A DNA stretch of 64,000 nucleotides, taken from IMG/VR virus record IMGVR_UViG_3300020711_000298, positions 36,981 to 100,980 of that record; one strand, 5' to 3'. Positions within the stretch are counted from its first letter, which is position 1. Each line of letters opens with the position of its first letter. The translations under genes and the position numbers were made by a program. The DNA is from a virus. Below, in pieces: positions 14,937-50,003 of the stretch. Under the pieces are notes generated by a model. That model saw only the letters and a list, made by a program, of their open reading frames with translations, made no database searches and was not told the origin of the DNA.

Positions 14937-14957
14937 AGGGGACCTTTTAGGTCCCCT
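14937..14957 (+). terminator. hairpin after nrdJ
   Basis: aggggacct-ttt-aggtcccct perfect stem. Confidence 0.6.
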
Positions 14958-14968
14958 TAATATTTATA
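14958..14968 (+). promoter_or_regulatory. putative late promoter TAATATTTATA heading the secreted-protein operon
   Basis: Identical to motifs at 825, 20746, 58894. Confidence 0.5.
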
Positions 14969-15024
14969 GGAAAAGGTTATTCAAATTGTTTTTTATTTAA
15001 CATTTTAAACATTTTTATAACCAA

Positions 15025-16938
15025 ATGAAAAAAATTATTTTATTTATTCTAGTTGCGCTGTTGCCGTTTCTAGTTAAAAGTCAAACAATCCCCGCAGCTC
15101 CTGGTACAGGACATTATGTAATTATTGATACTGGGTACAATGTAGGTCCAACCGCAACAGGTACAACTACTGCTACTCTTTATTTCAGAAACAGCACTAC
15201 TAGTGATAAAATCACAGGTATGCAATTTAGAATATGGTACGATAGTCTAGCATTTAATGGTGCTTCTCCAACAGTATCATTACTTTATAGTTCTGCTAAC
15301 AAATATATACAATATGTTACTGATACAACTCATGGTAGTATCACTATCACTTTAGTTTATACTGGTAGTAGTTCAACTTATAATTTAGGAGATAGCGCGG
15401 CTTTTGCTATTACTTTCACTCACAATACTAATACATCTTTATTCAATACTTTAGATAGTATAAAAACACTAAAAGTATCAGGCGCTCAAACATACACTAA
15501 TTTAGCGTCTACTGTTTATGGTAATGATACTACATTAACTATTTACAGTTATGGTGGTAGATTTAATCGTCCTTTCCTTCATTATCATGGTCAATTTGTA
15601 AATGTTACCGGTACTAACACTAGAAACATAACTGTTTCTTTAGAGAAAAAACCTAAAACAAGTGGTACTTGGGTTAATATAAGTACTCAAACAACAGGTG
15701 CTGATGGTAAATTTAATTTTACAACTATATTAGATACTACTTATTGGGCTGCTAGATTAAATATTGAAGGTGATACAATGAATATAGGTAATATTATATC
15801 AACAGCCGATGCTCAAAAAATAAATCGTTTTGTACTTGGATTAGACAATCCTCAAGCTTTTGATTTTTACACTTCTGATGTAAACGGAGACCATAAAATA
15901 TCGATTTCAGATGAATATACTGTTTATGGTAGAATAGCAGGTAGATTTAGTACTTGGGTAAATGGTGTTAAAGATGTTTTATTCTTTACCTCAACCGAAT
16001 ATAGTACTATTTCTTCAAACCCAAATACAAATTATACAGCAACTATCTCAGGTACAACAAACGTATTATTTAATATAGTTGGTGGTAGCGTCGATTCAGT
16101 AACATATTATGTTGTGGGTGTAGGTGATGCTAATGGTACTGGATTTAAAATGGCTAAACTTACTCCAATTCAAATTATTAATCCCAACAATAACAACTAT
16201 ATAATAGATGAAACTGTTGAGTATTATGTAAATAATTTAAATACAATTGAAGTTAATTTACCTTCATTATCAGTAGATGCAGGTAATTTAGTAAATATAC
16301 CTATTAAAGTACTTACAAATGGCGAACAAATAGGTTCATTACAGTTAGCTTTAAAATTTGATACTACATTACTTGATTTTAAAGGTGTAATATCTGAGGA
16401 AAAAGTAGGTAATTGGATGTCATTTATAAACCCAAACAGTGGAGTAGTTGAATGGGGTGGATTTGATGCTAGTAATAATCAACATCTTTTAAATAATGAA
16501 GATCAAGTAGTAACATTACAATTTTTAGCTAAACAACCTAAAGATAATTGGACAACTTCTCCAATATATGTTACTCGTAAATTTGCAGGTAATGCTTTAG
16601 CTACTGATTTAAATATTAATCCTACTGATGGTAGAATTGAAGTTATGAGAATGTCTTCACCTGCTATTAATACAGATAATAATATTGCTTCTATTAATGT
16701 TTATCCTAATCCAACTAGTGGAGAAGTAGTAATTCATTTTTCTGTTCCTAAAGATGGTAATGTGACAGTTGCTTTTTATGATGTTAACGGAAAGAAAAAA
16801 TACACAGTAATACAAACCACAATGCCTAAAGGTGTTTATGCTTACAAAGCAAATATAGATGGATTAGCTAAAGGAGCATATAACGTTGTAATAACAACAA
16901 ATGAATCATCAGCTTACAATAAAACAATTTTAAACTAA
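15025..16938 (+). CDS. secreted cohesin/dockerin-like protein with T9SS C-terminal sorting domain
   Basis: Signal peptide ending KS-Q; cohesin-like ITGMQFRIWYD and VNIPIKV..IGSLQLALKFDTTLLDF; dockerin-like DVNGDHKISISD; CTD VYPNPTSG..VAFYDVNGK..LAKGAYNV. Confidence 0.75.
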   Translation: MKKIILFILVALLPFLVKSQTIPAAPGTGHYVIIDTGYNVGPTATGTTTATLYFRNSTTSDKITGMQFRIWYDSLAFNGASPTVSLLYSSANKYIQYVTDTTHGSITITLVYTGSSSTYNLGDSAAFAITFTHNTNTSLFNTLDSIKTLKVSGAQTYTNLASTVYGNDTTLTIYSYGGRFNRPFLHYHGQFVNVTGTNTRNITVSLEKKPKTSGTWVNISTQTTGADGKFNFTTILDTTYWAARLNIEGDTMNIGNIISTADAQKINRFVLGLDNPQAFDFYTSDVNGDHKISISDEYTVYGRIAGRFSTWVNGVKDVLFFTSTEYSTISSNPNTNYTATISGTTNVLFNIVGGSVDSVTYYVVGVGDANGTGFKMAKLTPIQIINPNNNNYIIDETVEYYVNNLNTIEVNLPSLSVDAGNLVNIPIKVLTNGEQIGSLQLALKFDTTLLDFKGVISEEKVGNWMSFINPNSGVVEWGGFDASNNQHLLNNEDQVVTLQFLAKQPKDNWTTSPIYVTRKFAGNALATDLNINPTDGRIEVMRMSSPAINTDNNIASINVYPNPTSGEVVIHFSVPKDGNVTVAFYDVNGKKKYTVIQTTMPKGVYAYKANIDGLAKGAYNVVITTNESSAYNKTILN

Positions 16939-16951
16939 AACAAAACAAATT

Positions 16952-17293
16952 ATGTCAGAAGAAACAAAAACAACCGACGGGGGTTGGTCAGGTCTAAAGA
17001 AAACATTAATAGGTACACTTACAACAGTTATCGCTGGTGCTGGTGTTTGGGTAAGTTCATTTTTGGGTGGTCATAAAGAAGAACCTAAAGCAGAACCTAA
17101 AGCCGCTACTGCTGCCCCTGCTCCAGCTGCTGCTGCTCCTGCCGCTGCTCCTGTGATTATTAATTTATCAAATAATAACACAAACCAACAAAAACAAACA
17201 GGTGGTAGTGCAACAGCCTCAGCTGCTACTAAAGAAAAACCAGTTGAGAAAAAAGAAACTAAAAAGAGCGAAACACAAGATGCTCCTTGGTAA
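16952..17293 (+). CDS. single-pass membrane protein with Ala/Pro-rich linker
   Basis: Hydrophobic TLIGTLTTVIAGAGVWVSSFL; AAPAPAAAAPAAAP linker. Confidence 0.65.
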   Translation: MSEETKTTDGGWSGLKKTLIGTLTTVIAGAGVWVSSFLGGHKEEPKAEPKAATAAPAPAAAAPAAAPVIINLSNNNTNQQKQTGGSATASAATKEKPVEKKETKKSETQDAPW

Positions 17294-17307
17294 TTAAAAT
17301 TAACTCT

Positions 17308-18018
17308 ATGAAAATATTATATGTTATAGCTTTAATGCTGTTACCCTTTATTAGTGTTGCTCAAATCGGTTCTATTAAAACCGAACAATATCATGCCCGC
17401 TTTGAAAAAGGAATCTCATTAGATAGTGTTCTTAATTATAAGGACACTGTCAAAATTCCTATTCAATTATTAAAAGTAGGAATCAATTCAGAACTATATG
17501 AAATGTATCCTGAATTAAAAGATAAACGTGTTGGTTTGGGTGTAACAAACATTGTAATTGAATTTTTAGAAGAAACCAATCGCTTTGTATTTACTGAAGA
17601 TAAATTAGAAATCAAAGAAAGAATGATTGCTGAATATAAAGCATCAGCAAAAGGTTTTACTGAAAATAAAATAGATGGTAAAGGTAAAATCAAATTAGCC
17701 AAATATTTTGTTTATATCGAAGTATATGACTTTTCAGTATCTGAAGATGAAATAGTAAAAGCTAAAGATGGATCTAAAGTTACTCAAACAACTCGTTTAG
17801 GTTTACAAATCAAGTTTGTAGATGCAGAATCAGGAGAAATAATAACTGGTAGTGATATGGGTGAGGCTTCAACTGTAAAAACATCTAATCTTTTAGGTGA
17901 CATAGATGAAATTAAATTTAATCAATCCACAATAGGTATTTCTACTAAAAAAGCACTTGAATCTGCTTCAGTAAATGTCATTTTAAAATTGATTAAAAAA
18001 GGTGTATTTAAAAACTAA
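17308..18018 (+). CDS. CsgG/TolB-N-like secreted protein
   Basis: Signal peptide; LGVTNIVIEFLEETNRFVFTE, IEVYDFSVSE, LGLQIKFVDAESGEII pattern of the CsgG family. Confidence 0.6.
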   Translation: MKILYVIALMLLPFISVAQIGSIKTEQYHARFEKGISLDSVLNYKDTVKIPIQLLKVGINSELYEMYPELKDKRVGLGVTNIVIEFLEETNRFVFTEDKLEIKERMIAEYKASAKGFTENKIDGKGKIKLAKYFVYIEVYDFSVSEDEIVKAKDGSKVTQTTRLGLQIKFVDAESGEIITGSDMGEASTVKTSNLLGDIDEIKFNQSTIGISTKKALESASVNVILKLIKKGVFKN

Positions 18019-19141
18019 AATATTAATCTTATTAGTATTGTTTGGACTGACTTCTTATGGTCAGTCTTTTACATATTCCTATAAAGATCCATGTAATGGT
18101 ACTTTAAAAACATTAATAATACCAGCAAGCCAAAATACAATATCTGTTACTTACTATAATCAAATACAAACATTTAATATAAACGATTTTTCTAATGGTG
18201 TTTTTGATAAGTGGGTATCAAATACTTACAGTCAATATAGCGTTACATCTCCTTGTAGTGGATTAGCATTTACTGCTACTACTAAACAAAACCAAGAACT
18301 TACAGCTACATTAACCGGGCTAGTAACCACTTTAACAAACCTAAACTTCCCCGATCCTAATACTCCAGACCCAGGTGAACCCGTTCCTACCCCTGATATT
18401 CCTTCAGGTAGTGGTTCTTCAGATGTATTAAGTGGTACAAGTAATAGTGTAACATCATCAAGTGGAGGTGGAAGCGATTCAAAACCATCTTCAAGTTCTA
18501 AAGACAAACCAGGAGTATTAAAACCAACAATTGTAGGTAGTTCAGATCTACTTGCTTTTAGCAATACAGATGCTTCTAAAGGTGGTAAAGTATCAGGTGG
18601 TTATACTTCTACAAGATGGGATGGTAAAGTATCTCATGGTATAATGTTTGATTATTCAACTAATATCCAAGGTCCTAATATAACTGGATTTTATTCGTTT
18701 GCTAAAGGTAAAAGAATGAATTTGATATCAAATACTATTTCTATTGGTTTTAGTGGGAAAGGATTATTTTATAGTACATTAGCTGCTGGTCAACTTAGAA
18801 ATTATAAAAAAATAAAAATAATAGGTTTATTAGCAGGTACGTATGGAGAAATGTATCAACAAAAACTTATAGGTACTTCTATAATAACTGGTTTGATGTA
18901 TGATATGAAAGTAGGTAAAAAAATAGCAATAAAATTTACAAATTTGTTTGTATATTCTCCTTACATGCAATATTACAATGATATGTTATTAAAATCACCT
19001 TATGTTATTTTACCTTCTATTGGTACAAATTTAAGCTTATCTAAATCATTTAAATTTAATATCAATGCAGGTGGTGCTTATCAAGTTAATAGCGGAGCTC
19101 TTAATTATACAATAACAATAGGAACAAGGTTAGCATTATGA
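18002..19141 (+). CDS. secreted protein with Pro/Ser linker and putative C-terminal outer-membrane beta-barrel
   Basis: Signal peptide ending YG-Q; PDPNTPDPGEPVPTPD and S/G linker; alternating strands ending FNINAGGAYQ..LNYTITIGTRLAL. Confidence 0.55.
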   Translation: MYLKTKILILLVLFGLTSYGQSFTYSYKDPCNGTLKTLIIPASQNTISVTYYNQIQTFNINDFSNGVFDKWVSNTYSQYSVTSPCSGLAFTATTKQNQELTATLTGLVTTLTNLNFPDPNTPDPGEPVPTPDIPSGSGSSDVLSGTSNSVTSSSGGGSDSKPSSSSKDKPGVLKPTIVGSSDLLAFSNTDASKGGKVSGGYTSTRWDGKVSHGIMFDYSTNIQGPNITGFYSFAKGKRMNLISNTISIGFSGKGLFYSTLAAGQLRNYKKIKIIGLLAGTYGEMYQQKLIGTSIITGLMYDMKVGKKIAIKFTNLFVYSPYMQYYNDMLLKSPYVILPSIGTNLSLSKSFKFNINAGGAYQVNSGALNYTITIGTRLAL

Positions 19142-20298
19142 TAAAATATATTTTAACTATATTATTTACCTTATTTTCTCTAGCACTACTAGGACAAACA
19201 TTTACTTATTCAGGATACATTTATAATGCTGATGGTAGTGGAGCAGGTAATGTTCCTGTTAAATTATATTCAAGAACCACCACCACCACTGTTGTAAGTA
19301 ATTTAAATACAAAGATATACTCAACACACAATGGAAACGGTAGCACAAACCAGTACAACCAGTATGCAAGTACTGTAACCGATATGGGTTACTTTTTCAA
19401 CACAGGATATAGCAACACTAGGTTAAACTGGTCCGGTACTTTACCTGCTACTACCGTGTTAAATTGGGGTACCTGGACTACTCTATATTATGCAGGAGCT
19501 AGTGTACCAAATGGAGGAGATTATTTTTCAACCGATGTTACAGCCACCTTTGTACCTAAAGAAACAGGTACATACTATTTTGGTGTTAATTCAGATGATG
19601 CTGGTGATATTTTAATAAACGGAAGTCTAGTTGCTTCTTATTATGGTGGTCATGGTATGGGAGGATATCAAATAGGTGGTATTTCTATGACAGCCGGCAC
19701 ATCTTATACCTTTGAAGCAAGACAACAAGAATATGGTGGTGGTGAAGGTTTGGCTGTTGCTTGGAAAAGACCATCTCAATCAACTTATACTTTACAAACA
19801 GACGAGATAGGAACTGCTACCACAACTACTTCTGCTTGGTCTTTATATGGGACTTACTACACAGATTCTACAGGTAAGTATACAATAAGTGTACCTACAA
19901 ATTCTACCTTAAGTTGGCAATTAGAATTTGATGCTTATACTCCCTCTACAACATTACAAATCTCAGATTTTATAGGTATAGACAATGTTATACTTAATAA
20001 AACAATATTAAATGGTTTACATTATTATCTATATGATTTAAATAGTACTAACAATATTACAATATCAGATTTGTATTATATAGCAGGTAAAAAAAGTGGT
20101 AGATTTTCTACTTGGGGAAATTCATTTACCTCAAGATTATTTACTCCGTCTCAATATACTTCTATAACCTCAACAACATCAAATTTAAAATCTACTTATC
20201 CTGGTGTAACTCAAATTTTAATATCACCAGCAACAAGTGGAGGCACTGCAAATTATTATCTAATAGCCCCAGGTTATTCTGGAAAAGTAAATTATTAA
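19138..20298 (+). CDS. secreted PA14-domain protein with dockerin-like repeat
   Basis: Signal peptide; PA14 motifs ETGTYYFGVNSDDAGDILING and QEYGGGEGLAVAWKRP; DLNSTNNITISD; paralogous to 15025 ORF (shared GRFSTW). Confidence 0.7.
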   Translation: MIKYILTILFTLFSLALLGQTFTYSGYIYNADGSGAGNVPVKLYSRTTTTTVVSNLNTKIYSTHNGNGSTNQYNQYASTVTDMGYFFNTGYSNTRLNWSGTLPATTVLNWGTWTTLYYAGASVPNGGDYFSTDVTATFVPKETGTYYFGVNSDDAGDILINGSLVASYYGGHGMGGYQIGGISMTAGTSYTFEARQQEYGGGEGLAVAWKRPSQSTYTLQTDEIGTATTTTSAWSLYGTYYTDSTGKYTISVPTNSTLSWQLEFDAYTPSTTLQISDFIGIDNVILNKTILNGLHYYLYDLNSTNNITISDLYYIAGKKSGRFSTWGNSFTSRLFTPSQYTSITSTTSNLKSTYPGVTQILISPATSGGTANYYLIAPGYSGKVNY

Positions 20299-20301
20299 AA
20301 T

Positions 20302-20748
20302 ATGAAAAAATTATTATTCGCTTTAATGTTAATTCCTACTCTATCATTTGGACAATGTGTAAGAGTTGATTCTGTTTGGTGTAACAAAAAAGTTAAACAA
20401 ATAGGCACCAGAAGTGTTCTTTTAGGTGTAAAACAAATAACTGAAGAAATATTATCAGAAAAATATAAACTTTGTGATTCTAATGCAATTTCGGTTAAAA
20501 TAGAAATATATAAAATAGGTATGCCTTCAAGCAATTTTAAAATAGCAGGCGCCGGAGAAGCCAAACAAACCACACAAGTTTACACTAGAATGTATTTTGG
20601 CGATAAAGTTGTAGAAGGATTAGGTGAATCTGAAACTAAAGCAGGTTACATACTTATTGAATTAAATGACGATAAAATACCATTTAGTAATACAACAATA
20701 GGTAATGCATTAAAGAAATCAATACTCGATGCTTCCGGAAAATTATAA
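20302..20748 (+). CDS. small secreted protein, CsgG-like fold suspected
   Basis: Signal peptide; LLGVKQITEEIL and FSNTTIGNALKKSI parallel GLGVTNIVIEFL and FNQSTIGISTKKAL of the 17308 ORF. Confidence 0.5.
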   Translation: MKKLLFALMLIPTLSFGQCVRVDSVWCNKKVKQIGTRSVLLGVKQITEEILSEKYKLCDSNAISVKIEIYKIGMPSSNFKIAGAGEAKQTTQVYTRMYFGDKVVEGLGESETKAGYILIELNDDKIPFSNTTIGNALKKSILDASGKL

Positions 20749-20756
20749 TATTTATA
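20746..20756 (+). promoter_or_regulatory. putative late promoter TAATATTTATA before lysis region
   Basis: Recurring motif. Confidence 0.5.
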
Positions 20757-20778: not shown

Positions 20779-21075
20779 ATGAACTTTAAACAATGGATTA
20801 TTGATCTTTTCAAAGATGAAAGAGGATCAACATCAGTAAAACCAGTAGTGGCCGTGATTGGCACTTTATTTCTTTGCGTAACTATGACATTAAACAGTTA
20901 CACACATGAAGAATTTAAACCAGCTCCAGAATTAGTAAACGCTGTATTAGTTATAACAGCAATTGGTATGGGTGCTGATACTTTAGATAAATTCACTACA
21001 AAGAAACCAGACCCAATTACTCCAGCTGCTCCTGCTGAAACACCAACCCCAGAAGAAACATCAACAGAAGCGTAA
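20779..21075 (+). CDS. holin-like two-TM membrane protein
   Basis: Two hydrophobic helices, near endolysin. Confidence 0.45.
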   Translation: MNFKQWIIDLFKDERGSTSVKPVVAVIGTLFLCVTMTLNSYTHEEFKPAPELVNAVLVITAIGMGADTLDKFTTKKPDPITPAAPAETPTPEETSTEA

Positions 21076-21975
21076 ATGATAAAACTAACCAGTATCTTAA
21101 AGAGTATAGCAAATAAATCAACACTTAATGAGTGTGTTGTAGCAGCTATTAAACTCGGTAATGACAAAATTTTAGCTAAAAATAGAGATCGCGCTTATGA
21201 TCCTACTATTAAAATTATTCATGAGTTAATAGACGATATAGAAGTTTGTTATCTATATGATGAAATTACCGATTACTCTGAAGGTATGAATGAGTATGGT
21301 ATAGGTATTATAAATGCTTCATTAATGGTGGCTGAAGATGAAGCTCAAGGCACTATGCAAAGTAGTGAAAAAAATGATAAGAAAAAAACAGCTTCTCCAT
21401 CATATGATGGTATGAAAATAAGACACGCCTTAGCTAACAAAAAATTATCTAAGGCGGTTCGTTCTATAGTATCATACCAAGGTGAAGACCCAAAAGAAGT
21501 AGGTATTAAAGGTGAAACTATAGTTTCTAATCCTAAATATACCTTTATCGTTGAACTTACAAGTAAACATTTACCTGTAATTACAAAAATGAAACCTGAC
21601 ACTAAAGTAGTAGTACGAACAAATCATGGAATACACTATAAAGATGCAGGTTACACTAGTGGACCTAAAAGAGCATCATCTATTTCTAGAAAAGAAATAG
21701 CTCAAAAAGAGTTAGAAGACATAAAAAATGAAAATGAAATTCTTCCTGTATTGTCTAAATCTATAACAACAGATAATTACAATAATCCTTATAGAACAGA
21801 TAATAAATATGGAATGAATACAACATCACAAATTAAAATGAATCTAACTCAACTTACTTTTGAACTAGATTATGATGATGAACACAGCAAATTTGAAGGA
21901 TACGAAAATAAACTCCCAGAAGGATATGAGCCTAAAATAAAGGTAAGATTTAAACAAACAGAATTACATAAATAA
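21076..21975 (+). CDS. N-terminal nucleophile (Ntn) hydrolase-like protein with 19-aa leader
   Basis: CVVAAIKLGNDKILAKNRD, EGMNEYGIGI, VRTNHG match the C45/choloylglycine-hydrolase-like Ntn pattern. Confidence 0.65.
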   Translation: MIKLTSILKSIANKSTLNECVVAAIKLGNDKILAKNRDRAYDPTIKIIHELIDDIEVCYLYDEITDYSEGMNEYGIGIINASLMVAEDEAQGTMQSSEKNDKKKTASPSYDGMKIRHALANKKLSKAVRSIVSYQGEDPKEVGIKGETIVSNPKYTFIVELTSKHLPVITKMKPDTKVVVRTNHGIHYKDAGYTSGPKRASSISRKEIAQKELEDIKNENEILPVLSKSITTDNYNNPYRTDNKYGMNTTSQIKMNLTQLTFELDYDDEHSKFEGYENKLPEGYEPKIKVRFKQTELHK

Positions 21976-31466: not shown

Positions 31467-33350
31467 ATGTATCAATCAATATATTATTCACATAACGGAG
31501 ATGATAAAGGTACTTGTTACCTTAGAGATGATAAAAAAGGATGGAGTGAATTTAAATATAAACCTACAGTTTATAAATTAGATCATGAAGGTGAATATGA
31601 AACATTATTTGGTGATAGATGTTCTCCAATTCAAGGAAAATTTGATTGGAATGATCCTACTGTATTAGAAAAAGATATTCAAAAAGAATTAGCTATATTA
31701 AGAGATCTATATTATAAAGATGATTTTGCTCCTGAAAAACATAATATAGTTTATTTCGATATTGAGATTGAAATATTAGGTACTTTAAATCCTCAAACTG
31801 TTAGAGAAGCAAACGCTCAAATGACATCAGTAGCTATTATAGATGTTTCTACTAATAAAAAATATTGTTATATTGTAGATGAATCTAAAGTTATTGAATA
31901 TGTAGACAAAGATAATAAAGAAATCATACCATGTATTAATGAAAAAGATTTATTAAGTAAATTTTTAACTAAATGGGTTGAGTTAGATCCTACTATTATA
32001 GTTGGTTATAATAGTGATTTCTTTGATATTCCATACACTTACTTTAGAATTAAAAAAATACTAGGAGAAGATATGGCTTTATTTTTATCTCCTATTAAAA
32101 AAATAAATGATAATATTTATAACTCATATTCACCAATAACAATAGGAGGTGTGAATAGTCTTGATTATATGCTTTTAGTTAAAAAGTATATCATGAAAGA
32201 AGAATCATCTTATAAATTAAATGATATAGGATTAAAATATGCTAAATTAGGTAAAGTCGAATATAATGGCTCATTAGATAAACTATTTAAAGACAACCCA
32301 GATAAATTTATTGAATATAATCTTCGAGATGTTGAAATTATTGAGGCTTTAGAAAACAAATTACAATTTATCAAATTAACAGTTTTAATATGCCATTTAT
32401 GCCATGTACCTTATGAATCAATATATTATAATACAGTATTAAATGAAGGTGCTATATTAACATATTTAAAACGTAAAAATATAATATCACCTAATAAACC
32501 AACAACTACAAATAAAAATATTAAAGAATTAAATATAGGTGATGAAGTACAACACCAGCGAGGAACTCCAACTGTTGAAGGTGTGATTACTTATATAGAT
32601 GAAACAACTAATAAAGCTCAAGTTAGGACTAAAGCTAATACTTTAAAAGAAAGAAGTTTAAAATCAATAAGAAGAAAAGAATCATACGCTGGAGGATATT
32701 TATTAGAACCTAAACCTGGATTATACTCATATGTAAGTGATTCTGACTTTACTAGTCTATACCCAAGTATTATTAAATCTTTAAATTTAGGGATTGAAAC
32801 ATTAATAGGTAGAATTGTAACTAAAACTAATTATGAACAATATAATTCTTTAGAAAAATTAAAAGAAAAGGATCCTGAAGAAATAATTCATTTAGAAAAA
32901 TTAGATATTAAAACATATAATTTAAAACCTGGTAAAGTTAAAATAAAAGATTTAATAGAATTAATTGAAGAAAACAATTGGTCAATATCAGCTAGTGGAG
33001 CATTTTATAGAAATGATATTAAAAGTATATCATGTGAAGTATTGGAAGATTGGTTTGGAAAACGAGAACATTATAGAGGATTAAAAAAACAAGCAGGTAA
33101 AAAAGAAGATTGGGAAAATTATAAATTATATGATTTGTATCAAATGGCATTTAAAATCTTACAAAATGCACTTTATGGTACTTATGCTATAAATGGATGG
33201 AGATATACTGATGGGTATAAAATATGTTCTGCTTCTATTACAAATAGTGGTCAACGATTAGTTAAATCTAGTATAATTTATGCTGATAATTTAATTGAAG
33301 AATATATTAATACAGATGTAGAAAAATTAAAAAAATTACTAAATTTATAA
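31467..33350 (+). CDS. family B DNA polymerase, N-terminal subunit (exonuclease, motifs A and B)
   Basis: FDIEIE, GYNSDFFDIPY, YNLRDV, DFTSLYPSII, KILQNALYG. Confidence 0.92.
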   Translation: MYQSIYYSHNGDDKGTCYLRDDKKGWSEFKYKPTVYKLDHEGEYETLFGDRCSPIQGKFDWNDPTVLEKDIQKELAILRDLYYKDDFAPEKHNIVYFDIEIEILGTLNPQTVREANAQMTSVAIIDVSTNKKYCYIVDESKVIEYVDKDNKEIIPCINEKDLLSKFLTKWVELDPTIIVGYNSDFFDIPYTYFRIKKILGEDMALFLSPIKKINDNIYNSYSPITIGGVNSLDYMLLVKKYIMKEESSYKLNDIGLKYAKLGKVEYNGSLDKLFKDNPDKFIEYNLRDVEIIEALENKLQFIKLTVLICHLCHVPYESIYYNTVLNEGAILTYLKRKNIISPNKPTTTNKNIKELNIGDEVQHQRGTPTVEGVITYIDETTNKAQVRTKANTLKERSLKSIRRKESYAGGYLLEPKPGLYSYVSDSDFTSLYPSIIKSLNLGIETLIGRIVTKTNYEQYNSLEKLKEKDPEEIIHLEKLDIKTYNLKPGKVKIKDLIELIEENNWSISASGAFYRNDIKSISCEVLEDWFGKREHYRGLKKQAGKKEDWENYKLYDLYQMAFKILQNALYGTYAINGWRYTDGYKICSASITNSGQRLVKSSIIYADNLIEEYINTDVEKLKKLLNL

Positions 33351-35468: not shown

Positions 35469-37085
35469 ATGAGTAAAATTATAGAATTCGGCCCAGAAGC
35501 TAGAAAAAAATTATTTAATGGAGTTGAGAAATTATCCAACGCTGTTACATCAACTTTAGGCCCTAATGGTCGTAATGTTGTTATTTCAAAACCAGGTGAA
35601 TACCCAGCTAGTACAAAAGATGGAGTTACTGTAGCTAAATCAATAACACTTGAAGATCCAATTGAAGAATTAGGTGTACAAATGGTTAAACAAGCTGCTA
35701 TTAAAACAGCAGATACAGCTGGTGATGGTACAACTACATCAACTTTATTAGCGACCGAAATGGTTAGACAAGGTTTAACGCATTTAAGTAACGGAGCTAA
35801 CGCGGTAGAAATTAAACGCAGTATAGATGCCGCTGTTAAAGATGTCCTTGAATTTATACGCACACAAATTAAAGAAAATATATCATCTGAGGAACAACTA
35901 AAACAAATTGCTTCCATCTCAGCAAATAACGATCCTGAAGTAGGAGAATTAATTGCTACAGCTATGGAAAAAGTAGGTCGTGAAGGTGTTGTTCATATTG
36001 AAGAATCAAAATCAGGTGAAACATATCTTGAAACAGTAGAAGGTATGCAGTTTGATCGTGGTTATAAATCACCTTATTTTGTTACTGATAATAACTCAAT
36101 GACTAGTACTTTAAATGATGTTTTAATTCTTATAGCAGATAAAAAATTCACTCAAGTAAAAGAATTATTACCTATACTTGAAGCTGTATCTCAACAAAAT
36201 AAATCTTTACTTATTGTAGCTGAAGATGTTGAAGGTGAAGCATTAGCTACACTTATTGTAAATAAAGCTAGAGGTATATTAAAAGTAGCGGCTGTAAAAG
36301 CTCCTGATTTTGGTGATCGTCGTAAATTGATTTTGGAAGATATGGCTATTTTAACAGGTGGTCAAGTGTTTAGTACTGAAAAAGGTATGAAATTAGATAA
36401 ATTTAGTTGGGATTGGTTTGGTAAAGCACGTGTTGTAACAATTACTAAAGACACTACTACTATTATTGATGGTAAAGGAGATGAAAATTCTGTATCACAA
36501 CGTATAACAGAACTACAACAACAAATTGAAAATTCAAAAACACCATTTGAACAAGAAAAATTACAAGAACGTTTAGCTAAATTTATAGGTGGTGTAGCAA
36601 TTATTCATGTTGGTGGAAATACTGAAACCGAAATGAAAGAAAAGAAAGATCGTGTAGATGATGCTTTACATGCTACAAAAGCAGCCATTGAAGAAGGTAT
36701 TGTACCAGGTGGTGGAGTAGCATTATTACACGCACGTAATGGTATTAAAAACCGTGATACTATTGGCTCTAATATAGTTTGGCATGCTTGCGCAGCCCCA
36801 CTTAATAAAATACTTAAAAACGCAGGATATGAAGATTTAGCAATATTCCAAGTTATAAGTGATACTAACAACAGTGAAAATTGGAATGGTTGGGATTTGA
36901 AAGAAGAAAAATTAACCAACATGAAAGAAGCAGGAATCATCGATCCAGCCAAAGTAACCCGTTGCGCTCTTGAAAATGCAGCATCAGTAGCAGGAACCAT
37001 TTTGTTAACAGAATGTACTGTTGTTGATAAACCAGAAGAAAAGAAAGCAGACGAAGGATTTGGAGGTATGGGAGGAATGTTTTAA
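35469..37085 (+). CDS. groEL: chaperonin GroEL
   Basis: TLGPNGRNV, AGDGTTT, EGMQFDRGY, GGMGGMF tail. Confidence 0.97.
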   Translation: MSKIIEFGPEARKKLFNGVEKLSNAVTSTLGPNGRNVVISKPGEYPASTKDGVTVAKSITLEDPIEELGVQMVKQAAIKTADTAGDGTTTSTLLATEMVRQGLTHLSNGANAVEIKRSIDAAVKDVLEFIRTQIKENISSEEQLKQIASISANNDPEVGELIATAMEKVGREGVVHIEESKSGETYLETVEGMQFDRGYKSPYFVTDNNSMTSTLNDVLILIADKKFTQVKELLPILEAVSQQNKSLLIVAEDVEGEALATLIVNKARGILKVAAVKAPDFGDRRKLILEDMAILTGGQVFSTEKGMKLDKFSWDWFGKARVVTITKDTTTIIDGKGDENSVSQRITELQQQIENSKTPFEQEKLQERLAKFIGGVAIIHVGGNTETEMKEKKDRVDDALHATKAAIEEGIVPGGGVALLHARNGIKNRDTIGSNIVWHACAAPLNKILKNAGYEDLAIFQVISDTNNSENWNGWDLKEEKLTNMKEAGIIDPAKVTRCALENAASVAGTILLTECTVVDKPEEKKADEGFGGMGGMF

Positions 37086-42268: not shown

Positions 42269-43771
42269 ATGTTTAAACCAGTTAGTTTATTTTACACAGA
42301 CGGATATAAGATTGGCCACAAGAAAATGTTGGCCCCAGGAACCACAAAATTATATGGTACTTGGATTCCTCGTAGCACAAAGTATGCTCCTACCGGTGTT
42401 ACAAAAATAGTATCGTTTGGTCAACAGCTTGTAGTTCGTTGGTTAAATGATGAGTTTACAGAACATTTTTTCAACCAACCAAAATCAGTAGCAACCCAAT
42501 TTGGTAAAGATATGTCAATGTATCTTGGAATGGATTATGATGCTACCCATTTTGAAGCACTTCATGATTTAGGTTATTTACCTATTCGAATTAAAGCATT
42601 ACCAGAAGGTATTGAAACATTACCTAATGTTCCTCATATGACCTTTATTAACACCGTAGATGGTTTTGCTTGGTTAACTTTATATTTGGAAACAATTATT
42701 TCCTCTTTGGCTTGGAAACCTTCAACATCAGCCACTATTGCTCTACAATATCGTAGGAATTTAGTTCAATGGGTTATGAAAACAGATCCGGCTAATGCAT
42801 TTTTAATTCCTTTCCTTGCTCATGATTTCTCTGCTCGCGGTTTATCACCTTGGGATATGTTATCAAGCGGTTTAGGACATGCTACTTCGTTTAGAGGTTC
42901 TGATACCATTATTTGTATTCCGGGTGCTCGTTATTTTTATAATGAACCTGAAACAGAGGTTTGTATCAATTCAGTAAATGCTTCTGAACATAGCGTTTCA
43001 ACAACTAAAATCTTTACGGTTGGTGAACAACAAATGATTGCGGATTGGTTGGTTGATTTTCCTAAAGGAATATTATCAATCGTATCAGATACATTTGATT
43101 TATGGAAATTAATTACCGAATATTTACCAGCAAACAAAGAAGCGATAATGGCTCGTGACGGTAAGTTAGTCATTCGTCCTGACTCAGGTGATCCAGTTGA
43201 TATTATCTGTGGTTCATTTTTACAAAGTGACCGAGATTTATCGGAAAACAAAAATGCAATTTGGACAAGTGAAGAAAAAGGTGTAATCGAATTACTTTGG
43301 GAAATCTTCGGTGGTACAATCAACGAACAAGGTTACAAAGTTCTTGATCCACACATCGGAGCCATTTACGGTGACTCAATTACATTGGAACGTCAGATTC
43401 AAATATATGAAAGGTTAGCCGCTAAAGGTTTTGCTTCAACTAATATTGTACTCGGTATTGGTTCTTATACATATCAAATGAATACTCGTGATACATTAGG
43501 TTTTGCTGCTAAAGGTGCCTGGTTTGAAGTTGATAAAAATGGTACTAAGGTTGGTTATGATATTTACAAAGATCCAGTAACCGATTCAGGTAAAACAAAG
43601 AAATCTTTGAAAGGTCTTATTATGGTAGATGAAAATCTTGAAGTACACACCCAATGTACACCTCAACAAGAGGCTCAAGGTTTACTACAAACCATTTATA
43701 TGGATGGTAAATTCTACAATCAAACAACATTAACTGAAATTCGCGCTAAACTTGAACAAATATGCAAATAA
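42269..43771 (+). CDS. nicotinamide phosphoribosyltransferase-like protein (candidate Namat of NARP1)
   Basis: TDGYKIGH, HDFSARG, ASEHSV, VSDTFD, IRPDSGDP, IYGDSI, KKSLKG. Confidence 0.88.
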   Translation: MFKPVSLFYTDGYKIGHKKMLAPGTTKLYGTWIPRSTKYAPTGVTKIVSFGQQLVVRWLNDEFTEHFFNQPKSVATQFGKDMSMYLGMDYDATHFEALHDLGYLPIRIKALPEGIETLPNVPHMTFINTVDGFAWLTLYLETIISSLAWKPSTSATIALQYRRNLVQWVMKTDPANAFLIPFLAHDFSARGLSPWDMLSSGLGHATSFRGSDTIICIPGARYFYNEPETEVCINSVNASEHSVSTTKIFTVGEQQMIADWLVDFPKGILSIVSDTFDLWKLITEYLPANKEAIMARDGKLVIRPDSGDPVDIICGSFLQSDRDLSENKNAIWTSEEKGVIELLWEIFGGTINEQGYKVLDPHIGAIYGDSITLERQIQIYERLAAKGFASTNIVLGIGSYTYQMNTRDTLGFAAKGAWFEVDKNGTKVGYDIYKDPVTDSGKTKKSLKGLIMVDENLEVHTQCTPQQEAQGLLQTIYMDGKFYNQTTLTEIRAKLEQICK

Positions 43772-49255: not shown

Positions 49256-49256
49256 A

Positions 49257-49988
49257 ATGAAATTACTTAATATATTATTGGAAGTTTATAAAGAAGAATA
49301 TGAATTGAATCTTAAAGAGGGTTTAACTAAAACCACAGAAATAGGTCAAGCAGTCAATATTCTAAAAAAACAATTCCCTGATTGGATATTTCAGTATTAT
49401 AAAGGTGATAAGGATTTTACAATAGAAATTTTAAGAATAAAAAATGGTATTAACCTTGATTCTTTTGAAAAATTATTACCTTTATTAAATAATCTAAGTT
49501 ATTTTATTTCTTATATGGAGATATACGGTGATGATAGAGGCCGACGATTTGAAATTAAGGATAAATATGATGAAAAAATAGTTAAAAATAGTTTTCAAAA
49601 TCAAGATATTTATTCCATATATTTAGAATGTGAAGCCAAATTTGATCAAACTGTTAATAAAATACCTGAATTTTTATATCATGTTGCTCCTTTAAAAAAT
49701 TGGGAAAAAATCGAAAAAATAGGTTTGGTACCTAAATCAAGATCTAAAAAAGCTTTTCATCCTTATAGAGTATATTTAGGAAAAGATGAAAAAAATATAT
49801 TATCTTTAGCTCCAAAATTTTATCAAATTACAGGAATAAAAGAATGGGTATTATTAAAAATAGATACAAAATCTATTCCTGGAGATTATTTTAAACTATA
49901 TTATGATCCTAATTTTAAGTATGGGTTTTATACATTAAACAATATTCCATCTTACGCTATAGAAAAAATAAAAAATATTAATATTTAA
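49257..49988 (+). CDS. protein with C-terminal ADP-ribosyltransferase-fold (Tpt1/KptA-like) domain
   Basis: LYHVA..IEKIGLVPKS..RVYL..LLKID..DPN..NIPSYAI. Confidence 0.55.
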   Translation: MKLLNILLEVYKEEYELNLKEGLTKTTEIGQAVNILKKQFPDWIFQYYKGDKDFTIEILRIKNGINLDSFEKLLPLLNNLSYFISYMEIYGDDRGRRFEIKDKYDEKIVKNSFQNQDIYSIYLECEAKFDQTVNKIPEFLYHVAPLKNWEKIEKIGLVPKSRSKKAFHPYRVYLGKDEKNILSLAPKFYQITGIKEWVLLKIDTKSIPGDYFKLYYDPNFKYGFYTLNNIPSYAIEKIKNINI

Positions 49989-50003
49989 TTAAAAACAAGT
50001 TAT

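What the first reader, a model, noticed from the sequence alone, without database searches (positions are those of the whole stretch)
14958..20748. Phage-encoded cell-surface assembly: cohesin-dockerin-like T9SS scaffold, two CsgG-like proteins, a putative OM barrel and a lectin-like cargo
Seen: six tightly coupled ORFs bounded by two TAATATTTATA motifs; five have cleavable signal peptides ending at Gln and one has a membrane anchor. The 637-aa ORF reads cohesin-like, beta-sandwich, dockerin-like, cohesin-like, T9SS CTD. The 386-aa ORF has the same sandwich plus dockerin-like repeat and a PA14 domain but no CTD. Established: the CTD routes proteins through the Bacteroidota type IX secretion system, cohesin-dockerin pairs build cellulosome-type complexes, and CsgG forms the curli outer-membrane channel. 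Inference: the phage builds a modular surface structure on the infected cell, with the scaffold exported by the host T9SS and CTD-less partners docked or exported through the phage CsgG-like/barrel parts. Possible roles are receptor masking, aggregation of new hosts before lysis, or grazer avoidance. I know of no characterised phage system with this architecture.
Basis: partly seen in the sequence, partly recalled or inferred. Interest (0 to 1): 0.88.

Follow-up and report, generated by a model that had tools for sequence, protein, structure and literature searches.

The report
Phage envelope module with swappable lectin
A large phage of Flavobacterium-type bacteria carries six tightly packed genes for exported proteins, conserved in order in at least 80 related phage contigs, that most likely place a swappable sugar-binding protein in or on the infected cell's envelope; nobody has tested what it does.

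Summary
Six coupled ORFs (15025-20748) sit between a terminator and a holin-like gene plus an endolysin, in a 101-kb IMG/VR phage record.

- **Targeting:** five ORFs have Sec signal peptides exposing Gln (the Bacteroidetes Q-rule); one has an N-terminal membrane anchor.
- **Curated Pfam matches:** a cohesin and a T9SS type-A tail in the 637-aa protein, and PA14 in the 386-aa protein.
- **Weaker calls:** the dockerin-like module and the N-terminal cohesin-like domain are supported only below threshold, across the family.
- **CsgG-like pair:** the 243-aa and 148-aa proteins are paralogues. The 243-aa one is CsgG-superfamily by fold and by profile chain. It has no lipobox, so a curli-type channel is not shown.
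- **Barrel:** the 379-aa protein models as a 12-strand barrel closest to autotransporter translocators.
- **Conservation:** all six genes keep their order in about 80 viral contigs and in cultured Flavobacterium phage immuto (gp013-gp019).
- **Lectin slot:** it swaps between C-type lectin, ConA-like and PA14 domains.
- **Neighbours:** endolysin is the commonest neighbour, on either side.

Best reading, which is inferred: an envelope lectin-display module that uses the host T9SS. Docking and function are untested. This scan noted the same module before on other phage DNA. I found no paper that describes it.

The parts
14937..14957 (+). Intrinsic-terminator-like hairpin closing the upstream ribonucleotide reductase gene
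   Evidence: 9-bp stem with 6 GC pairs followed by a T-rich tail; sequence read.
14958..14968 (+). TAATATTTATA motif, a candidate phage promoter element 57 nt upstream of the first gene
   Evidence: 5 copies in the window, all on the + strand, against 1.26 expected. ATATTTAT is the commonest 8-mer within 130 nt upstream of the scaffold gene, in 16 of 41 loci. Promoter function is not tested.
15025..16938 (+). Scaffold protein (637 aa): signal peptide, cohesin-like domain, beta-sandwich, dockerin-like module, cohesin, T9SS type-A C-terminal domain
   Evidence: ORF; Pfam Cohesin and Por_Secre_tail above cut-off; TIGR04183; homologues of 629-652 aa at 41-55% identity.
15166..15516 (+). N-terminal cohesin-like domain of the scaffold (residues 48-164); tentative
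   Evidence: Pfam Cohesin E 0.003, 18 bits, below the cut-off. 29 of 41 homologues match below threshold. Profile comparison with the C-terminal cohesin is not significant.
15769..15942 (+). Dockerin-like EF-hand pair of the scaffold (residues about 249-306; DVNGDHKISISD loop)
   Evidence: Sequence read directly. Dockerin_1 E 0.097 for this segment; 57 of 81 family segments match, best 9.6e-7. The PDB profile search returns dockerins at E 0.03-0.5.
16246..16644 (+). Cohesin domain of the scaffold (residues 408-540)
   Evidence: Pfam PF00963, E 4.2e-9, 37.2 bits against a cut-off of 24.1.
16699..16929 (+). T9SS type-A C-terminal sorting domain (residues 559-635)
   Evidence: PF18962 at 38.6 bits against 27. 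TIGR04183 at 29.8 against 23. It is the only such domain in the 101-kb record. The family profile's tail matches CTDs in 159 of 201 Bacteroidota genomes.
16952..17293 (+). 113-aa bitopic membrane protein: conserved cytoplasmic N-terminus, one TM segment, Ala/Pro-rich extended region, invariant C-terminal Trp
   Evidence: ORF. The alignment of 36 homologues shows invariant K16, K17, T18 and W113 and a conserved APV(I/V)xN motif. No family match.
17287..18018 (+). 243-aa non-lipidated CsgG-superfamily protein, the most conserved gene of the module
   Evidence: 65-83% identity across 80 loci. AF2 model pLDDT 68.6. Foldseek top hit CsgG, E 7.7e-9; VIA-align CsgG Z 11.7. hhalign to a bacterial CsgG/HfaB lipoprotein family E 1.7e-41; that family matches E. 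coli CsgG at E 1.5e-6.
18002..19141 (+). 379-aa outer-membrane protein: small N-domain with two conserved Cys (residues 21-85), long helix (86-114), disordered Ser/Gly/Pro linker (116-170), 12-strand beta-barrel (176-378)
   Evidence: AF2 model pLDDT 76, about 90 in the barrel. VIA-align: NalP translocator Z 24.3 over model residues 83-379, then EstA, Hbp and AIDA-I at Z 21-22, and FapF at 19.6. Linker length varies, giving homologues of 394-736 aa.
19138..20298 (+). 386-aa CTD-less lectin: signal peptide, split beta-sandwich carrying an inserted PA14 domain (residues 126-221), dockerin-like module (about 274-323), C-terminal beta region
   Evidence: PA14 at 40.8 bits. C-terminal 150 aa are homologous to scaffold residues 216-370. 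In 40 homologues the insert is Lectin_C (21), Laminin_G_3 (13), PA14 (4), pentaxin, GEVED or Ig_7, and none has a CTD.
20302..20748 (+). 148-aa short paralogue of the 243-aa CsgG-fold protein; signal peptide, Gln, conserved Cys, no lipobox
   Evidence: hhalign A1 against A3: probability 96.9%, E 1.6e-10. Alignment of 36 homologues. The immuto gp019 N-terminus reads AQDKC, so the Cys is not at a lipobox position.
20746..20756 (+). Second TAATATTTATA motif, overlapping the stop of the last gene and preceding the holin-like gene

Best explanation
**What it is.** This is a conserved six-gene envelope module of a clade of large phages that infect Bacteroidota. All its products leave the cytoplasm.

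**Scaffold (637 aa).** It is exported by Sec. Its type-A C-terminal domain then hands it to the host type IX secretion system, which takes it to the cell surface.

**Lectin (386 aa).** It has no such tail. It carries the same sandwich-plus-dockerin-like module as the scaffold, with a swappable carbohydrate-binding domain inserted in it. The inference is that this module docks it to a cohesin of the scaffold, possibly already in the periplasm. It would then travel with the scaffold or be held by it.

**Accessory proteins.** The other four are inferred to form an envelope-spanning complex that anchors or assists the assembly, not a curli-type channel:
- an inner-membrane-anchored extended protein with an invariant C-terminal Trp;
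- two non-lipidated CsgG-fold periplasmic proteins;
- an autotransporter-like, helix-plugged 12-strand barrel on a flexible linker.

**Timing and role.** The module is often fused into the endolysin operon, so it probably acts around lysis. The most likely role is glycan binding at the infected cell's surface. That would mask receptors against superinfection and against loss of progeny on debris. Holding neighbouring host cells is the second option.

**Shown:** gene structure, targeting signals, domain families, folds, co-conservation, lectin swapping and endolysin linkage.
**Inferred:** docking, surface location, the accessory complex and the biological role.
For: - **Targeting signals.** Five Sec signal peptides expose Gln, as in the Bacteroidetes Q-rule (conserved; rule in PMC5837995). 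A T9SS type-A CTD passes the curated cut-offs and matches host CTDs in 159 of 201 Bacteroidota genomes.
- **Domains.** Cohesin and PA14 pass the curated cut-offs. The scaffold and the lectin share a roughly 150-aa module whose core matches Dockerin_1 in 57 of 81 family segments and solved dockerins weakly.
- **Swappable lectin.** The lectin slot holds Lectin_C, Laminin_G_3, PA14, pentaxin or GEVED in different phages, while its flanks stay conserved and never carry a CTD.
- **Separate proteins in immuto.** In phage immuto the scaffold is two separately exported proteins: gp014, and gp015 with its own signal peptide. The halves therefore must find each other non-covalently if they work together.
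- **Co-conservation.** The order scaffold, TM protein, CsgG-like, barrel, lectin, short CsgG-like is kept in essentially all 80 loci and in immuto gp013-gp019.
- **Folds.** CsgG fold and homology. Barrel and autotransporter-like fold.
- **Not virion genes.** The module lies among replication and lysis genes, not structural genes.
- **Endolysin linkage.** Endolysin is the commonest neighbour in 33 non-redundant loci and occurs on either side. In five lineages the scaffold gene starts 13-25 nt after the endolysin stop.
- **Phage-specific.** The 243-aa family was not found in the 400 other Bacteroidota genomes searched.
Against: - No experiment or expression data exist for this module.
- The dockerin-like and N-terminal cohesin-like calls are below the curated thresholds for the window's own sequence. 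The EF-hand pair could be merely a structural calcium site.
- It is not known whether T9SS can carry a non-covalently bound partner.
- In three related contigs an in-frame TGA separates the cohesin-plus-CTD part, which then lacks a signal peptide. Either the CTD is dispensable there or the stop is read through.
- The role of four of the six genes is guessed from topology and fold only.
- The linkage to endolysin fits a lysis function as well as a surface-display function.
Confidence: 0.5

Rival explanations
1. **Lysis accessory.** The module, or its four-gene core (TM protein, two CsgG-fold proteins, barrel), links the inner and outer membranes. It helps to breach the Bacteroidota outer membrane at lysis, doing the job of a spanin. 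The scaffold and lectin would then target or reinforce that step.
For: - Endolysin is the commonest neighbour, on either side of the module.
- In five non-redundant lineages the module follows the endolysin stop by 13-25 nt.
- In the window a two-TM holin-like ORF and the endolysin lie directly downstream.
- The 113-aa protein has the N-in, single-TM, periplasm-spanning topology of an i-spanin, with an invariant C-terminal Trp that could dock an outer-membrane partner.
Against: - The 113-aa protein has no coiled-coil periplasmic domain.
- No partner with a lipobox is present.
- Six genes, including a T9SS cargo and a swappable lectin, are far more than outer-membrane disruption needs.
- Among 50,697 GenBank phage records only the immuto phages carry the module, so it is not the general lysis solution of Bacteroidota phages.
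Confidence: 0.17
2. **Two independent units that only travel together.** One is a secreted lectin-and-scaffold pair that uses T9SS. The other is a separate periplasmic or outer-membrane CsgG-fold-plus-barrel unit. The second would be comparable to the csgG/csgF clusters of pelagimyophages, exporting or anchoring something else, for example its own disordered linker or an unknown polymer.
For: - Phage csgG/csgF clusters without any T9SS cargo exist in pelagimyophages (PMC7029224).
- Phage T9SS cargo without CsgG-like genes exists in 'Cryophage' (PMC7468147).
- No direct evidence links the two halves physically.
Against: - The genes are interleaved, not adjacent as two blocks: the lectin lies between the barrel and the short CsgG-like gene.
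- This interleaved order holds in essentially all 80 loci, although divergence falls to about 25-45% identity in the less conserved genes.
- In immuto only the lectin gene has moved, and it stays within the block.
Confidence: 0.15
3. **Export channel.** The CsgG-like proteins oligomerise into an outer-membrane pore, with the barrel as a second pore, through which the CTD-less lectin is exported.
For: - CsgG is the best structural match of the 243-aa protein.
- The protein is homologous to proteins that pass the Pfam CsgG cut-off.
- The lectin lacks any recognisable outer-membrane export signal.
Against: - CsgG needs its lipid anchor to reach the outer membrane, on established knowledge. Both phage paralogues have a signal-peptidase-I site with Gln and no lipobox, whereas the closest bacterial relatives keep a G-C lipobox.
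- The stretch aligned to the E. coli membrane hairpin is 5-6 residues shorter and about twice as charged.
- Curli-type pores pass unfolded chains, not folded lectin domains.
- The barrel has 12 strands and a helix modelled in its lumen.
Confidence: 0.1
4. **Virion or assembly proteins.** The 'signal peptides' are misread N-termini, and the lectin is a receptor-binding accessory of the particle.
For: Lectin-type domains (C-type lectin, ConA-like, PA14) also occur in phage fibres. The slot is hypervariable, like a receptor-binding gene.
Against: - Five conserved signal peptides obey the host-specific Q-rule.
- A T9SS CTD, a membrane anchor and a transmembrane barrel are all present.
- The module lies in the replication and lysis region rather than the structural module.
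- No PHROG structural family matches any of the six proteins.
Confidence: 0.03

Closest known systems
gp013-gp019 of Flavobacterium phage vB_FspM_immuto (NC_055915, Immutovirus; host Flavobacterium sp. LMO8)
   Same: All six genes are present in one block next to helicase and ribonucleotide reductase genes:
- gp017 is 61% identical to the 243-aa protein.
- gp016 corresponds to the TM protein.
- gp018 corresponds to the barrel.
- gp019 corresponds to the short paralogue.
- gp014 plus gp015 correspond to the scaffold.
- gp013 is a lectin with the same C-terminal module.
   Different: - The scaffold is split into two genes, each with its own signal peptide.
- The lectin domain is C-type instead of PA14, and its gene lies upstream of the scaffold instead of after the barrel.
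- The products are annotated only as hypothetical, 'cohesin domain-containing' or 'lectin C-type domain-containing', and no function is described.
Cellulosome-type cohesin-dockerin assemblies
   Same: A scaffold carries cohesin module(s) and a cell-surface targeting signal. A separate partner carries an EF-hand-pair dockerin-like module and a carbohydrate-binding domain.
   Different: - There are no enzymes; the payload is a lectin.
- The anchor is a T9SS CTD rather than an SLH domain or sortase signal.
- The scaffold carries a dockerin-like module of its own.
- The dockerin-like and first cohesin-like modules fall below the curated thresholds.
- Binding is untested.
- The genes are phage-encoded.
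Phage-encoded T9SS cargo of 'Cryophage' (Bellas et al. 2020, PMC7468147)
   Same: A phage of Bacteroidota encodes proteins with T9SS type-A sorting domains, one of them a PA14 protein. These cargo genes are hypervariable between phage variants, and the authors suggested inter-strain competition or superinfection effects.
   Different: - There the cargoes are single CTD-bearing enzymes or a PA14 protein.
- Here the lectin itself has no CTD, and it comes with a cohesin scaffold, CsgG-fold proteins, a barrel and a TM protein in a fixed six-gene order.
csgG/csgF 'curli' cluster of pelagimyophages (Zaragoza-Solas et al. 2020, PMC7029224)
   Same: It is a phage-encoded CsgG-family gene inside a small conserved cluster of unknown function. 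The authors proposed aggregation of host cells ('sibling capture') as one explanation.
   Different: - Those proteins are close to alphaproteobacterial CsgG and CsgF. Here there is no CsgF, CsgA, CsgB or CsgE match.
- The CsgG-fold proteins here are non-lipidated and too divergent for the Pfam model.
- They are embedded with T9SS cargo and a lectin.
- No similarity to any GenBank phage other than immuto was found by tblastn.
Type Va autotransporter translocators (NalP, EstA, Hbp, AIDA-I) and the amyloid exporter FapF
   Same: The 379-aa protein has a C-terminal 12-strand barrel preceded by a helix. The model superposes that helix on the pore helix of the translocators (NalP Z 24.3, 230 residues aligned, rmsd 2.5). 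As in FapF, an N-terminal domain and a disordered linker precede the barrel.
   Different: - There is no Pfam autotransporter match.
- A disordered insert lies between the helix and the first strand. It is 55 aa here and much longer in homologues of up to 736 aa.
- The putative passenger is only about 65 aa.
- Loops are very short.
- The helix-in-pore placement is a model feature, not a measurement.
Phage receptor-masking and surface-exclusion proteins (T5 Llp, Cor, plasmid TraT); named from general knowledge
   Same: These are phage- or plasmid-encoded envelope proteins that change what the cell surface offers to incoming phages or DNA. This is the proposed role here.
   Different: Those are single small lipoproteins that block one protein receptor. 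Here it is a six-gene assembly with a glycan-binding payload. The similarity is one of proposed function only and was not tested.

Membership tests
Cohesin (Pfam PF00963) | Sequence match to the curated family model | tested here: met
   Scaffold residues 408-540: E 4.2e-9, 37.2 bits against a cut-off of 24.1.
Cohesin (Pfam PF00963) | A second, N-terminal cohesin module in the same protein | tested here: inconclusive
   Residues 48-164 score 18 bits, below the cut-off. 29 of 41 homologues match below threshold, best 6.5e-4. The profile comparison with the C-terminal cohesin gives E 0.089, not significant. No PDB sequence match.
Cohesin-dockerin system | Calcium-dependent binding of the dockerin module to the cohesin | not testable with these tools
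   This needs a binding assay (pull-down or ITC, with and without EDTA) using scaffold cohesin(s) and the C-terminal module of the lectin.
Dockerin type I (Pfam PF00404) | Duplicated EF-hand-like calcium loop plus helix, matching the curated model | tested here: inconclusive
   The window's scaffold segment scores E 0.097, 13.3 bits, against a cut-off of 22.9. 57 of 81 family segments match at E<=1, best 9.6e-7. Two full-length lectin homologues match at 6e-4. The PDB profile search lists dockerins (4uyp_B, 4fl4_A, 6kg9_A, 2ccl_B) at E 0.03-0.5. The DVNGDxxISISD loop is visible, and N48 and D57 of the segment are invariant.
T9SS type-A cargo (Por_Secre_tail PF18962 / TIGR04183) | C-terminal sorting domain matching the curated models, plus an N-terminal Sec signal peptide | tested here: met
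   PF18962 at 38.6 bits against 27. TIGR04183 at 29.8 against 23. The signal peptide is read. The tail matches CTDs in 159 of 201 Bacteroidota genomes.
T9SS type-A cargo | Secretion depends on the host T9SS and the CTD is removed | not testable with these tools
   This needs expression in a wild-type host against a T9SS-mutant host.
CsgG family (Pfam PF03783), curli outer-membrane channel | Sequence match to the curated family model | tested here: not met
   No Pfam hit for the 243-aa or 148-aa protein at E<=0.1.
CsgG family (Pfam PF03783), curli outer-membrane channel | Homology and fold | tested here: met
   Foldseek top hits are CsgG (4uv2, 6l7c) at E about 1e-8. VIA-align gives CsgG 6lqh Z 11.7, 156 residues aligned, rmsd 3.8, ahead of LptE-like and PelC at Z 9.5-10. 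The family profile reaches proteins that pass the CsgG cut-off and a cluster named CsgG/HfaB. hhalign to that bacterial family gives E 1.7e-41, and that family hits E. coli CsgG at E 1.5e-6.
CsgG family (Pfam PF03783), curli outer-membrane channel | N-terminal lipobox Cys (lipoprotein anchoring to the outer membrane) | tested here: not met
   The mature N-termini start with Gln after a signal-peptidase-I site. The 243-aa protein has no Cys there. The conserved Cys of the 148-aa family is 1-3 residues after Gln. Bacterial relatives keep a G-C lipobox.
CsgG family (Pfam PF03783), curli outer-membrane channel | Two amphipathic transmembrane hairpins that build the oligomeric barrel | tested here: inconclusive
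   The stretch aligned to the E. coli hairpin is 5-6 residues shorter. It is 28-35% charged against 17%, but the alternating-face hydrophobicity does not discriminate. Oligomerisation was not tested.
Curli (type VIII) secretion system | Amyloid subunits CsgA and CsgB and accessory CsgE and CsgF next to CsgG | tested here: not met
   None of the six proteins or their neighbours has such a Pfam match.
Type Va autotransporter | C-terminal 12-strand barrel with an alpha-helix in its pore | tested here: met
   This rests on the AF2 model only. It shows 12 strands at residues 176-378 with pLDDT about 90. The best structural matches are NalP, EstA, Hbp and AIDA-I translocators at Z 21-24, with alignments that start at model residues 73-85 and so include helix 86-114.
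Type Va autotransporter | Sequence match to the autotransporter beta-domain family, a helix joined directly to strand 1, and a large passenger | tested here: not met
   No Pfam match. A 55-aa disordered insert lies between the helix and the barrel, and it is of variable length in homologues. The N-domain is only about 65 aa.
PA14 (Pfam PF07691) | Sequence match to the curated family model | tested here: met
   Residues 126-221 of the 386-aa protein: E 2.5e-10, 40.8 bits against a cut-off of 24.
Two-component spanin | An inner-membrane protein with a coiled-coil periplasmic domain, plus a small outer-membrane lipoprotein with a lipobox | tested here: not met
   The 113-aa protein has the topology, but its periplasmic part is Ala/Pro/Lys/Glu-rich and low in complexity. 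No lipobox protein is present in the module. No PHROG spanin match.

The most novel reading that the evidence does not exclude
A clade of Bacteroidota phages builds its own trans-envelope display apparatus.
- A cohesin scaffold hijacks the host T9SS.
- It carries a CTD-less, swappable lectin out by non-covalent dockerin-cohesin piggy-backing.
- A phage-encoded autotransporter-like barrel, a ring of non-lipidated CsgG-fold proteins and an inner-membrane tether fix the assembly in the envelope.
- The lectin coat is deployed with the lysis genes. It blocks glycan receptors on the dying cell and its debris, or it captures neighbouring host cells.

This would be the first multi-component surface organelle encoded by a phage, and the first case of hitch-hiking through T9SS.
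Probability: 0.25. Interest if true: 0.88.

Novelty: categorically new. Interest (0 to 1): 0.72.

Why it matters
- **Scale and conservation.** Phages are known to alter host surfaces with single genes, such as O-antigen modification or receptor-blocking lipoproteins. Here six envelope proteins are kept in a fixed order across at least 80 phage contigs of 15-430 kb, with one position that swaps lectin types the way a receptor-binding gene does. That implies strong selection on a function nobody has described.
- **Consequences if it is a surface lectin display using the host T9SS.**
  - It would show that phages can load new cargo onto this Bacteroidota-specific secretion system.
  - It would give a natural test of whether T9SS can carry non-covalent passengers.
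  - It would point to a new layer of phage-phage or phage-host-population interaction in lakes and coastal waters, where Flavobacteriia are major polysaccharide degraders.
- **Experimentally tractable.** A cultured model exists: phage immuto on Flavobacterium sp. LMO8.
- **New protein variants worth structural study.** The module contains non-lipidated CsgG-fold proteins and a minimal autotransporter-like barrel with a disordered insert.

Tried and rejected
- **Complex prediction** of the two cohesin(-like) domains with the lectin's C-terminal module gave no verdict: score 0.13 against a mark of 0.32. It counts neither for nor against binding.
- **Direct PDB sequence-profile searches** with the 243-aa, 379-aa and 148-aa families found nothing meaningful. 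The N-terminal cohesin-like profile also found nothing.
- **PHROGs and NCBIfam** gave no informative match for the four core proteins. I dismissed the 'Zot-like toxin' hit of the 113-aa protein (E 0.004) because it covers only the TM and Pro-rich stretch.
- **The ESM Atlas** had no usable hit for the barrel protein's N-domain.
- **Megablast against GenBank phages** found no near relative.
The context of the distant CsgG-like relatives could therefore be examined only in two metagenome loci, which showed tandem CsgG-like genes and a FlgT_N neighbour but no known system.
- **The first metagenome scan with alignment A10** failed for lack of a conserved stretch.
- **A simple alternating-hydrophobicity test** for CsgG-type membrane hairpins did not discriminate.
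- **PorV/PorP/SprF-type T9SS barrel reading for the 379-aa protein:** PorV (6h3i_F) scores Z 13.2, well below the autotransporters at 21-24. I do not favour this reading, but it is not excluded.
- **Lipoprotein reading of the 148-aa protein** (Cys19 directly after Gln18): rejected, because in homologues the Cys lies 1-3 residues after the Gln.

Full report
**Setting.** The window is bases 36981-100980 of a 100,980-base IMG/VR virus record that CheckV rates 63% complete.
- All large ORFs are on the + strand.
- The region around the finding encodes a UvsX-like recombinase, an exonuclease, a DnaB-type helicase, a ribonucleotide reductase, DNA polymerases, GroEL, NAMPT and glycosyltransferases.
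- The cassette therefore lies in the non-structural part of a large phage genome.
- The nearest cultured relative is Flavobacterium phage vB_FspM_immuto (160 kb, host Flavobacterium sp. LMO8, Baltic Sea). It is similar only at protein level.

**Observation.** Six ORFs run from 15025 to 20748, with junctions between a 13-nt gap and a 17-nt overlap.
- Upstream, a 9-bp GC-rich hairpin (14937-14957) ends the reductase gene. The motif TAATATTTATA follows it directly.
- A second copy of the motif overlaps the stop of the sixth gene.
- The motif occurs five times in the window, all on the + strand, against 1.26 expected.
- Its core ATATTTAT is the commonest 8-mer upstream of the first gene in related loci, in 16 of 41. 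It is a plausible promoter element, but that is not shown.
- Five products begin with a basic and hydrophobic leader followed by Gln, and the Gln is conserved in every family alignment. This is the Bacteroidetes Q-rule for signal peptidase I substrates (PMC5837995), already noted for some Porphyromonas phage proteins (PMC10367356). It supports both export and a Bacteroidota host.
- The 113-aa product has one membrane segment near its N-terminus.

**Scaffold and lectin.**
- *Scaffold (637 aa).* It passes the curated cut-offs for Cohesin (residues 408-540) and for the T9SS type-A sorting domain (559-635). This is the only such tail in the record. The family profile's tail matches CTDs in 159 of 201 sampled Bacteroidota genomes, while the rest of the protein matches nothing cellular.
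- *N-terminal domain.* It is cohesin-like only below threshold.
- *Shared module.* Residues 216-370 are homologous to the C-terminal 150 residues of the 386-aa protein. Its core reads as a pair of EF-hand-like loops and helices (ISTADAQKINRFVLG ... DVNGDHKISISDEYTVYGRIAGRF).
- *Dockerin-like signal.* Scanned alone, 57 of 81 such segments from the two families match Pfam Dockerin_1 (best 9.6e-7; the window's own 0.097). The family profile retrieves solved dockerins weakly. 'Dockerin-like' is therefore reasonable for the family but not established for this sequence.
- *Lectin (386 aa).* It carries a PA14 domain above the cut-off, inserted into the sandwich. In 40 non-redundant homologues the same slot holds a C-type lectin (21), a ConA-like domain (13), PA14 (4), pentaxin, GEVED or Ig-like domains. 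The N-terminal strands and the C-terminal module stay conserved, and no member has a CTD.

**The two CsgG-like proteins.**
- Pfam gives no hit.
- An AF2 model of the 243-aa protein (pLDDT 68.6) matches CsgG best. Foldseek gives E about 1e-8. An independent VIA-align search gives Z 11.7, ahead of LptE-like, PelC, HpaA and FlgT at Z 8.6-10.
- A profile search of 1.84 billion representatives found 277 relatives. The more distant ones pass the Pfam CsgG cut-off or are named CsgG/HfaB by their sources.
- The phage family aligns to that bacterial lipoprotein family with hhalign E 1.7e-41. That family in turn hits E. coli CsgG at E 1.5e-6.
- The 148-aa protein is a shorter paralogue (hhalign E 1.6e-10).
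- Membership in the CsgG superfamily is therefore supported.
- The bacterial relatives keep a G-C lipobox, but both phage proteins replace it with a signal-peptidase-I site and Gln.
- The stretch equivalent to the first CsgG membrane hairpin is shorter and more charged, and my simple test was inconclusive.
- A curli-type channel is therefore not shown. I consider soluble periplasmic rings or adaptors more likely.
- The 243-aa protein is the most conserved gene of the module (65-83% identity, about 70 invariant positions). It was not found in the 400 other sampled Bacteroidota genomes. In the GTDB species collection it occurs only on two long MAG contigs, one from an uncultured Bacteroidetes and one from a Sediminibacterium.

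**The barrel protein.** The AF2 model (pLDDT 76) has four parts:
- a small alpha/beta N-domain with two invariant Cys;
- a long helix (86-114);
- a disordered Ser/Gly/Pro linker (116-170);
- a confident 12-strand barrel with very short loops.

Foldseek lists autotransporters, FapF and 12-strand porins. VIA-align ranks autotransporter translocators first: NalP at Z 24.3, then EstA, Hbp and AIDA-I at 21-22. Those alignments begin at model residues 73-85 and cover 230-239 residues, more than the 204-residue barrel. Helix 86-114 is therefore superposed on the pore helix. Barrel-only porins such as KdgM align from residue 177. The protein thus resembles a minimal autotransporter or a FapF-type plugged barrel, but with a disordered insert between the helix and strand 1. 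That insert makes homologues range from 394 to 736 aa.

**The 113-aa protein.** Its family keeps a cytoplasmic MSEET...WSGLKKT head, the membrane segment, an Ala/Pro-rich spacer, a short APV(I/V)xN strand-like motif and an invariant C-terminal Pro/Ser-Trp. This suits a tether that reaches across the periplasm to an outer-membrane partner.

**Conservation.**
- A viral-contig scan with the 243-aa protein gave 192 confirmed relatives, of which I examined the best 80 loci.
- In essentially all of them the order is scaffold, TM protein, CsgG-like, barrel, lectin, short CsgG-like. Counts per gene are 74-80 of 80, and the shortfalls lie mostly at contig ends.
- Host contigs range from about 5 to 434 kb.
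- Phage immuto has the same set as gp013-gp019, with the lectin gene moved upstream and the scaffold split into two genes, each with its own signal peptide.
- Among 50,697 GenBank phage records only the four immuto records carry the scaffold or the 243-aa protein.

**Link to lysis.**
- Among 110 immediate neighbours of the module in 33 non-redundant loci, GH19-type endolysin is by far the commonest annotated family, with 13 members. It lies upstream in some lineages and downstream in others.
- In five lineages the scaffold gene starts 13-25 nt after the endolysin stop, without the upstream motif. That implies co-transcription.
- In the window a two-TM holin-like ORF, a C45/Ntn-hydrolase-like ORF and the endolysin follow the module.

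**Interpretation.**
- *What is shown.* This is a phage-specific, strongly conserved set of six envelope-addressed proteins. One is a bona fide T9SS cargo with a cohesin. One is a swappable lectin sharing a dockerin-like module with it.
- *What I infer.* The lectin is held by the scaffold and displayed at, or exported to, the surface through the host T9SS. The other four proteins form an anchoring or assisting envelope complex. The assembly acts around lysis.
- *Role.* I favour glycan binding that masks receptors on the infected cell and its debris. Capture of neighbouring cells is second.
- *Rivals.* They are a lysis accessory, two unrelated units, a true CsgG export channel, and virion proteins. 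They are weighed in the rival section.
- The single complex-prediction job gave no verdict and is not used as evidence.

**Prior knowledge.**
- Phage-encoded T9SS cargo has been reported once. 'Cryophage' carries CTD-bearing glycosidases and a PA14 protein, variable between variants (PMC7468147).
- Phage-encoded CsgG/CsgF clusters of unknown function are known in pelagimyophages (PMC7029224).
- Neither resembles the six-gene architecture here.
- My paper searches found no description of it.
- This scan has noted the same module before on other phage DNA, with similar follow-up verdicts. Those notes are not independent evidence.

**Verdict.**
- The parts belong to known families, but as a system I know of no characterised counterpart. 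I rate it categorically new with moderate confidence.
- Interest is 0.72: high because of the conservation, the lectin swapping, the T9SS hijack and the availability of a cultured model, and held back because the function is unknown and nothing in the docking model is demonstrated.

Noticed in passing
L003:6090-6150; also L004 and L005: In three related contigs the scaffold gene carries an in-frame TGA (GTGI*MARL) exactly at the junction before the cohesin-plus-CTD part. The downstream part has no signal peptide of its own. Either the CTD part is dispensable there, or the stop is read through.
   Followed up: partly
L012:12348-12812, L032:11902-12360 and 12 other loci (alignment A7): In 14 of 33 non-redundant loci a seventh gene overlaps the end of the short CsgG-like gene. 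It encodes about 150 aa with a signal peptide plus Gln, an invariant HExxH...EE motif and weak SprT-like/zincin matches, so it is a small secreted metalloprotease candidate. It was not found in the window's own record.
   Followed up: partly
window 20779-21075: A 98-aa ORF with two hydrophobic segments and a Pro/Thr/Glu-rich tail lies directly after the module and before the endolysin. It looks like a holin. Homologues lie next to the endolysin in several loci.
   Followed up: no
window 21076-21975: A 299-aa ORF between the holin-like gene and the endolysin weakly matches the C45 autoproteolytic acyltransferase/hydrolase (Ntn) family, at NCBIfam E 3.9e-6 and below the cut-off.
   Followed up: no
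L020:10221-12932: In one contig the lectin and the short CsgG-like protein are read as a single 903-aa ORF. Near-identical contigs L016-L019 have two genes. This is probably a mutation or an assembly error rather than a real fusion.
   Followed up: no
L102:6303-7633 and L104:7063-8930: The closest bacterial relatives of the 243-aa protein are lipoproteins named CsgG/HfaB family. They also occur as tandem paralogues, or next to a protein with a FlgT_N domain, in metagenome contigs of unknown organisms. Their system is not known either.
   Followed up: partly
P0091, P0092, P0102 (caspase fusions); P0097, P0125 (kinase fusions): Distant members of the same CsgG-like superfamily are fused to Peptidase_C14 (caspase) domains or to Ser/Thr protein kinase domains.
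   Followed up: no
window 35469-37085, 42269-43771, 47822-51308: The phage also encodes a GroEL-type chaperonin, a nicotinamide phosphoribosyltransferase and two glycosyltransferase-like proteins. The glycosyltransferases could bear on surface glycan changes.
   Followed up: no
window 825, 32111 and 58894: Three further copies of TAATATTTATA lie on the + strand. Those at 825 and 58894 sit at gene ends; the copy at 32111 lies inside the DNA polymerase ORF (31467-33350).
   Followed up: no
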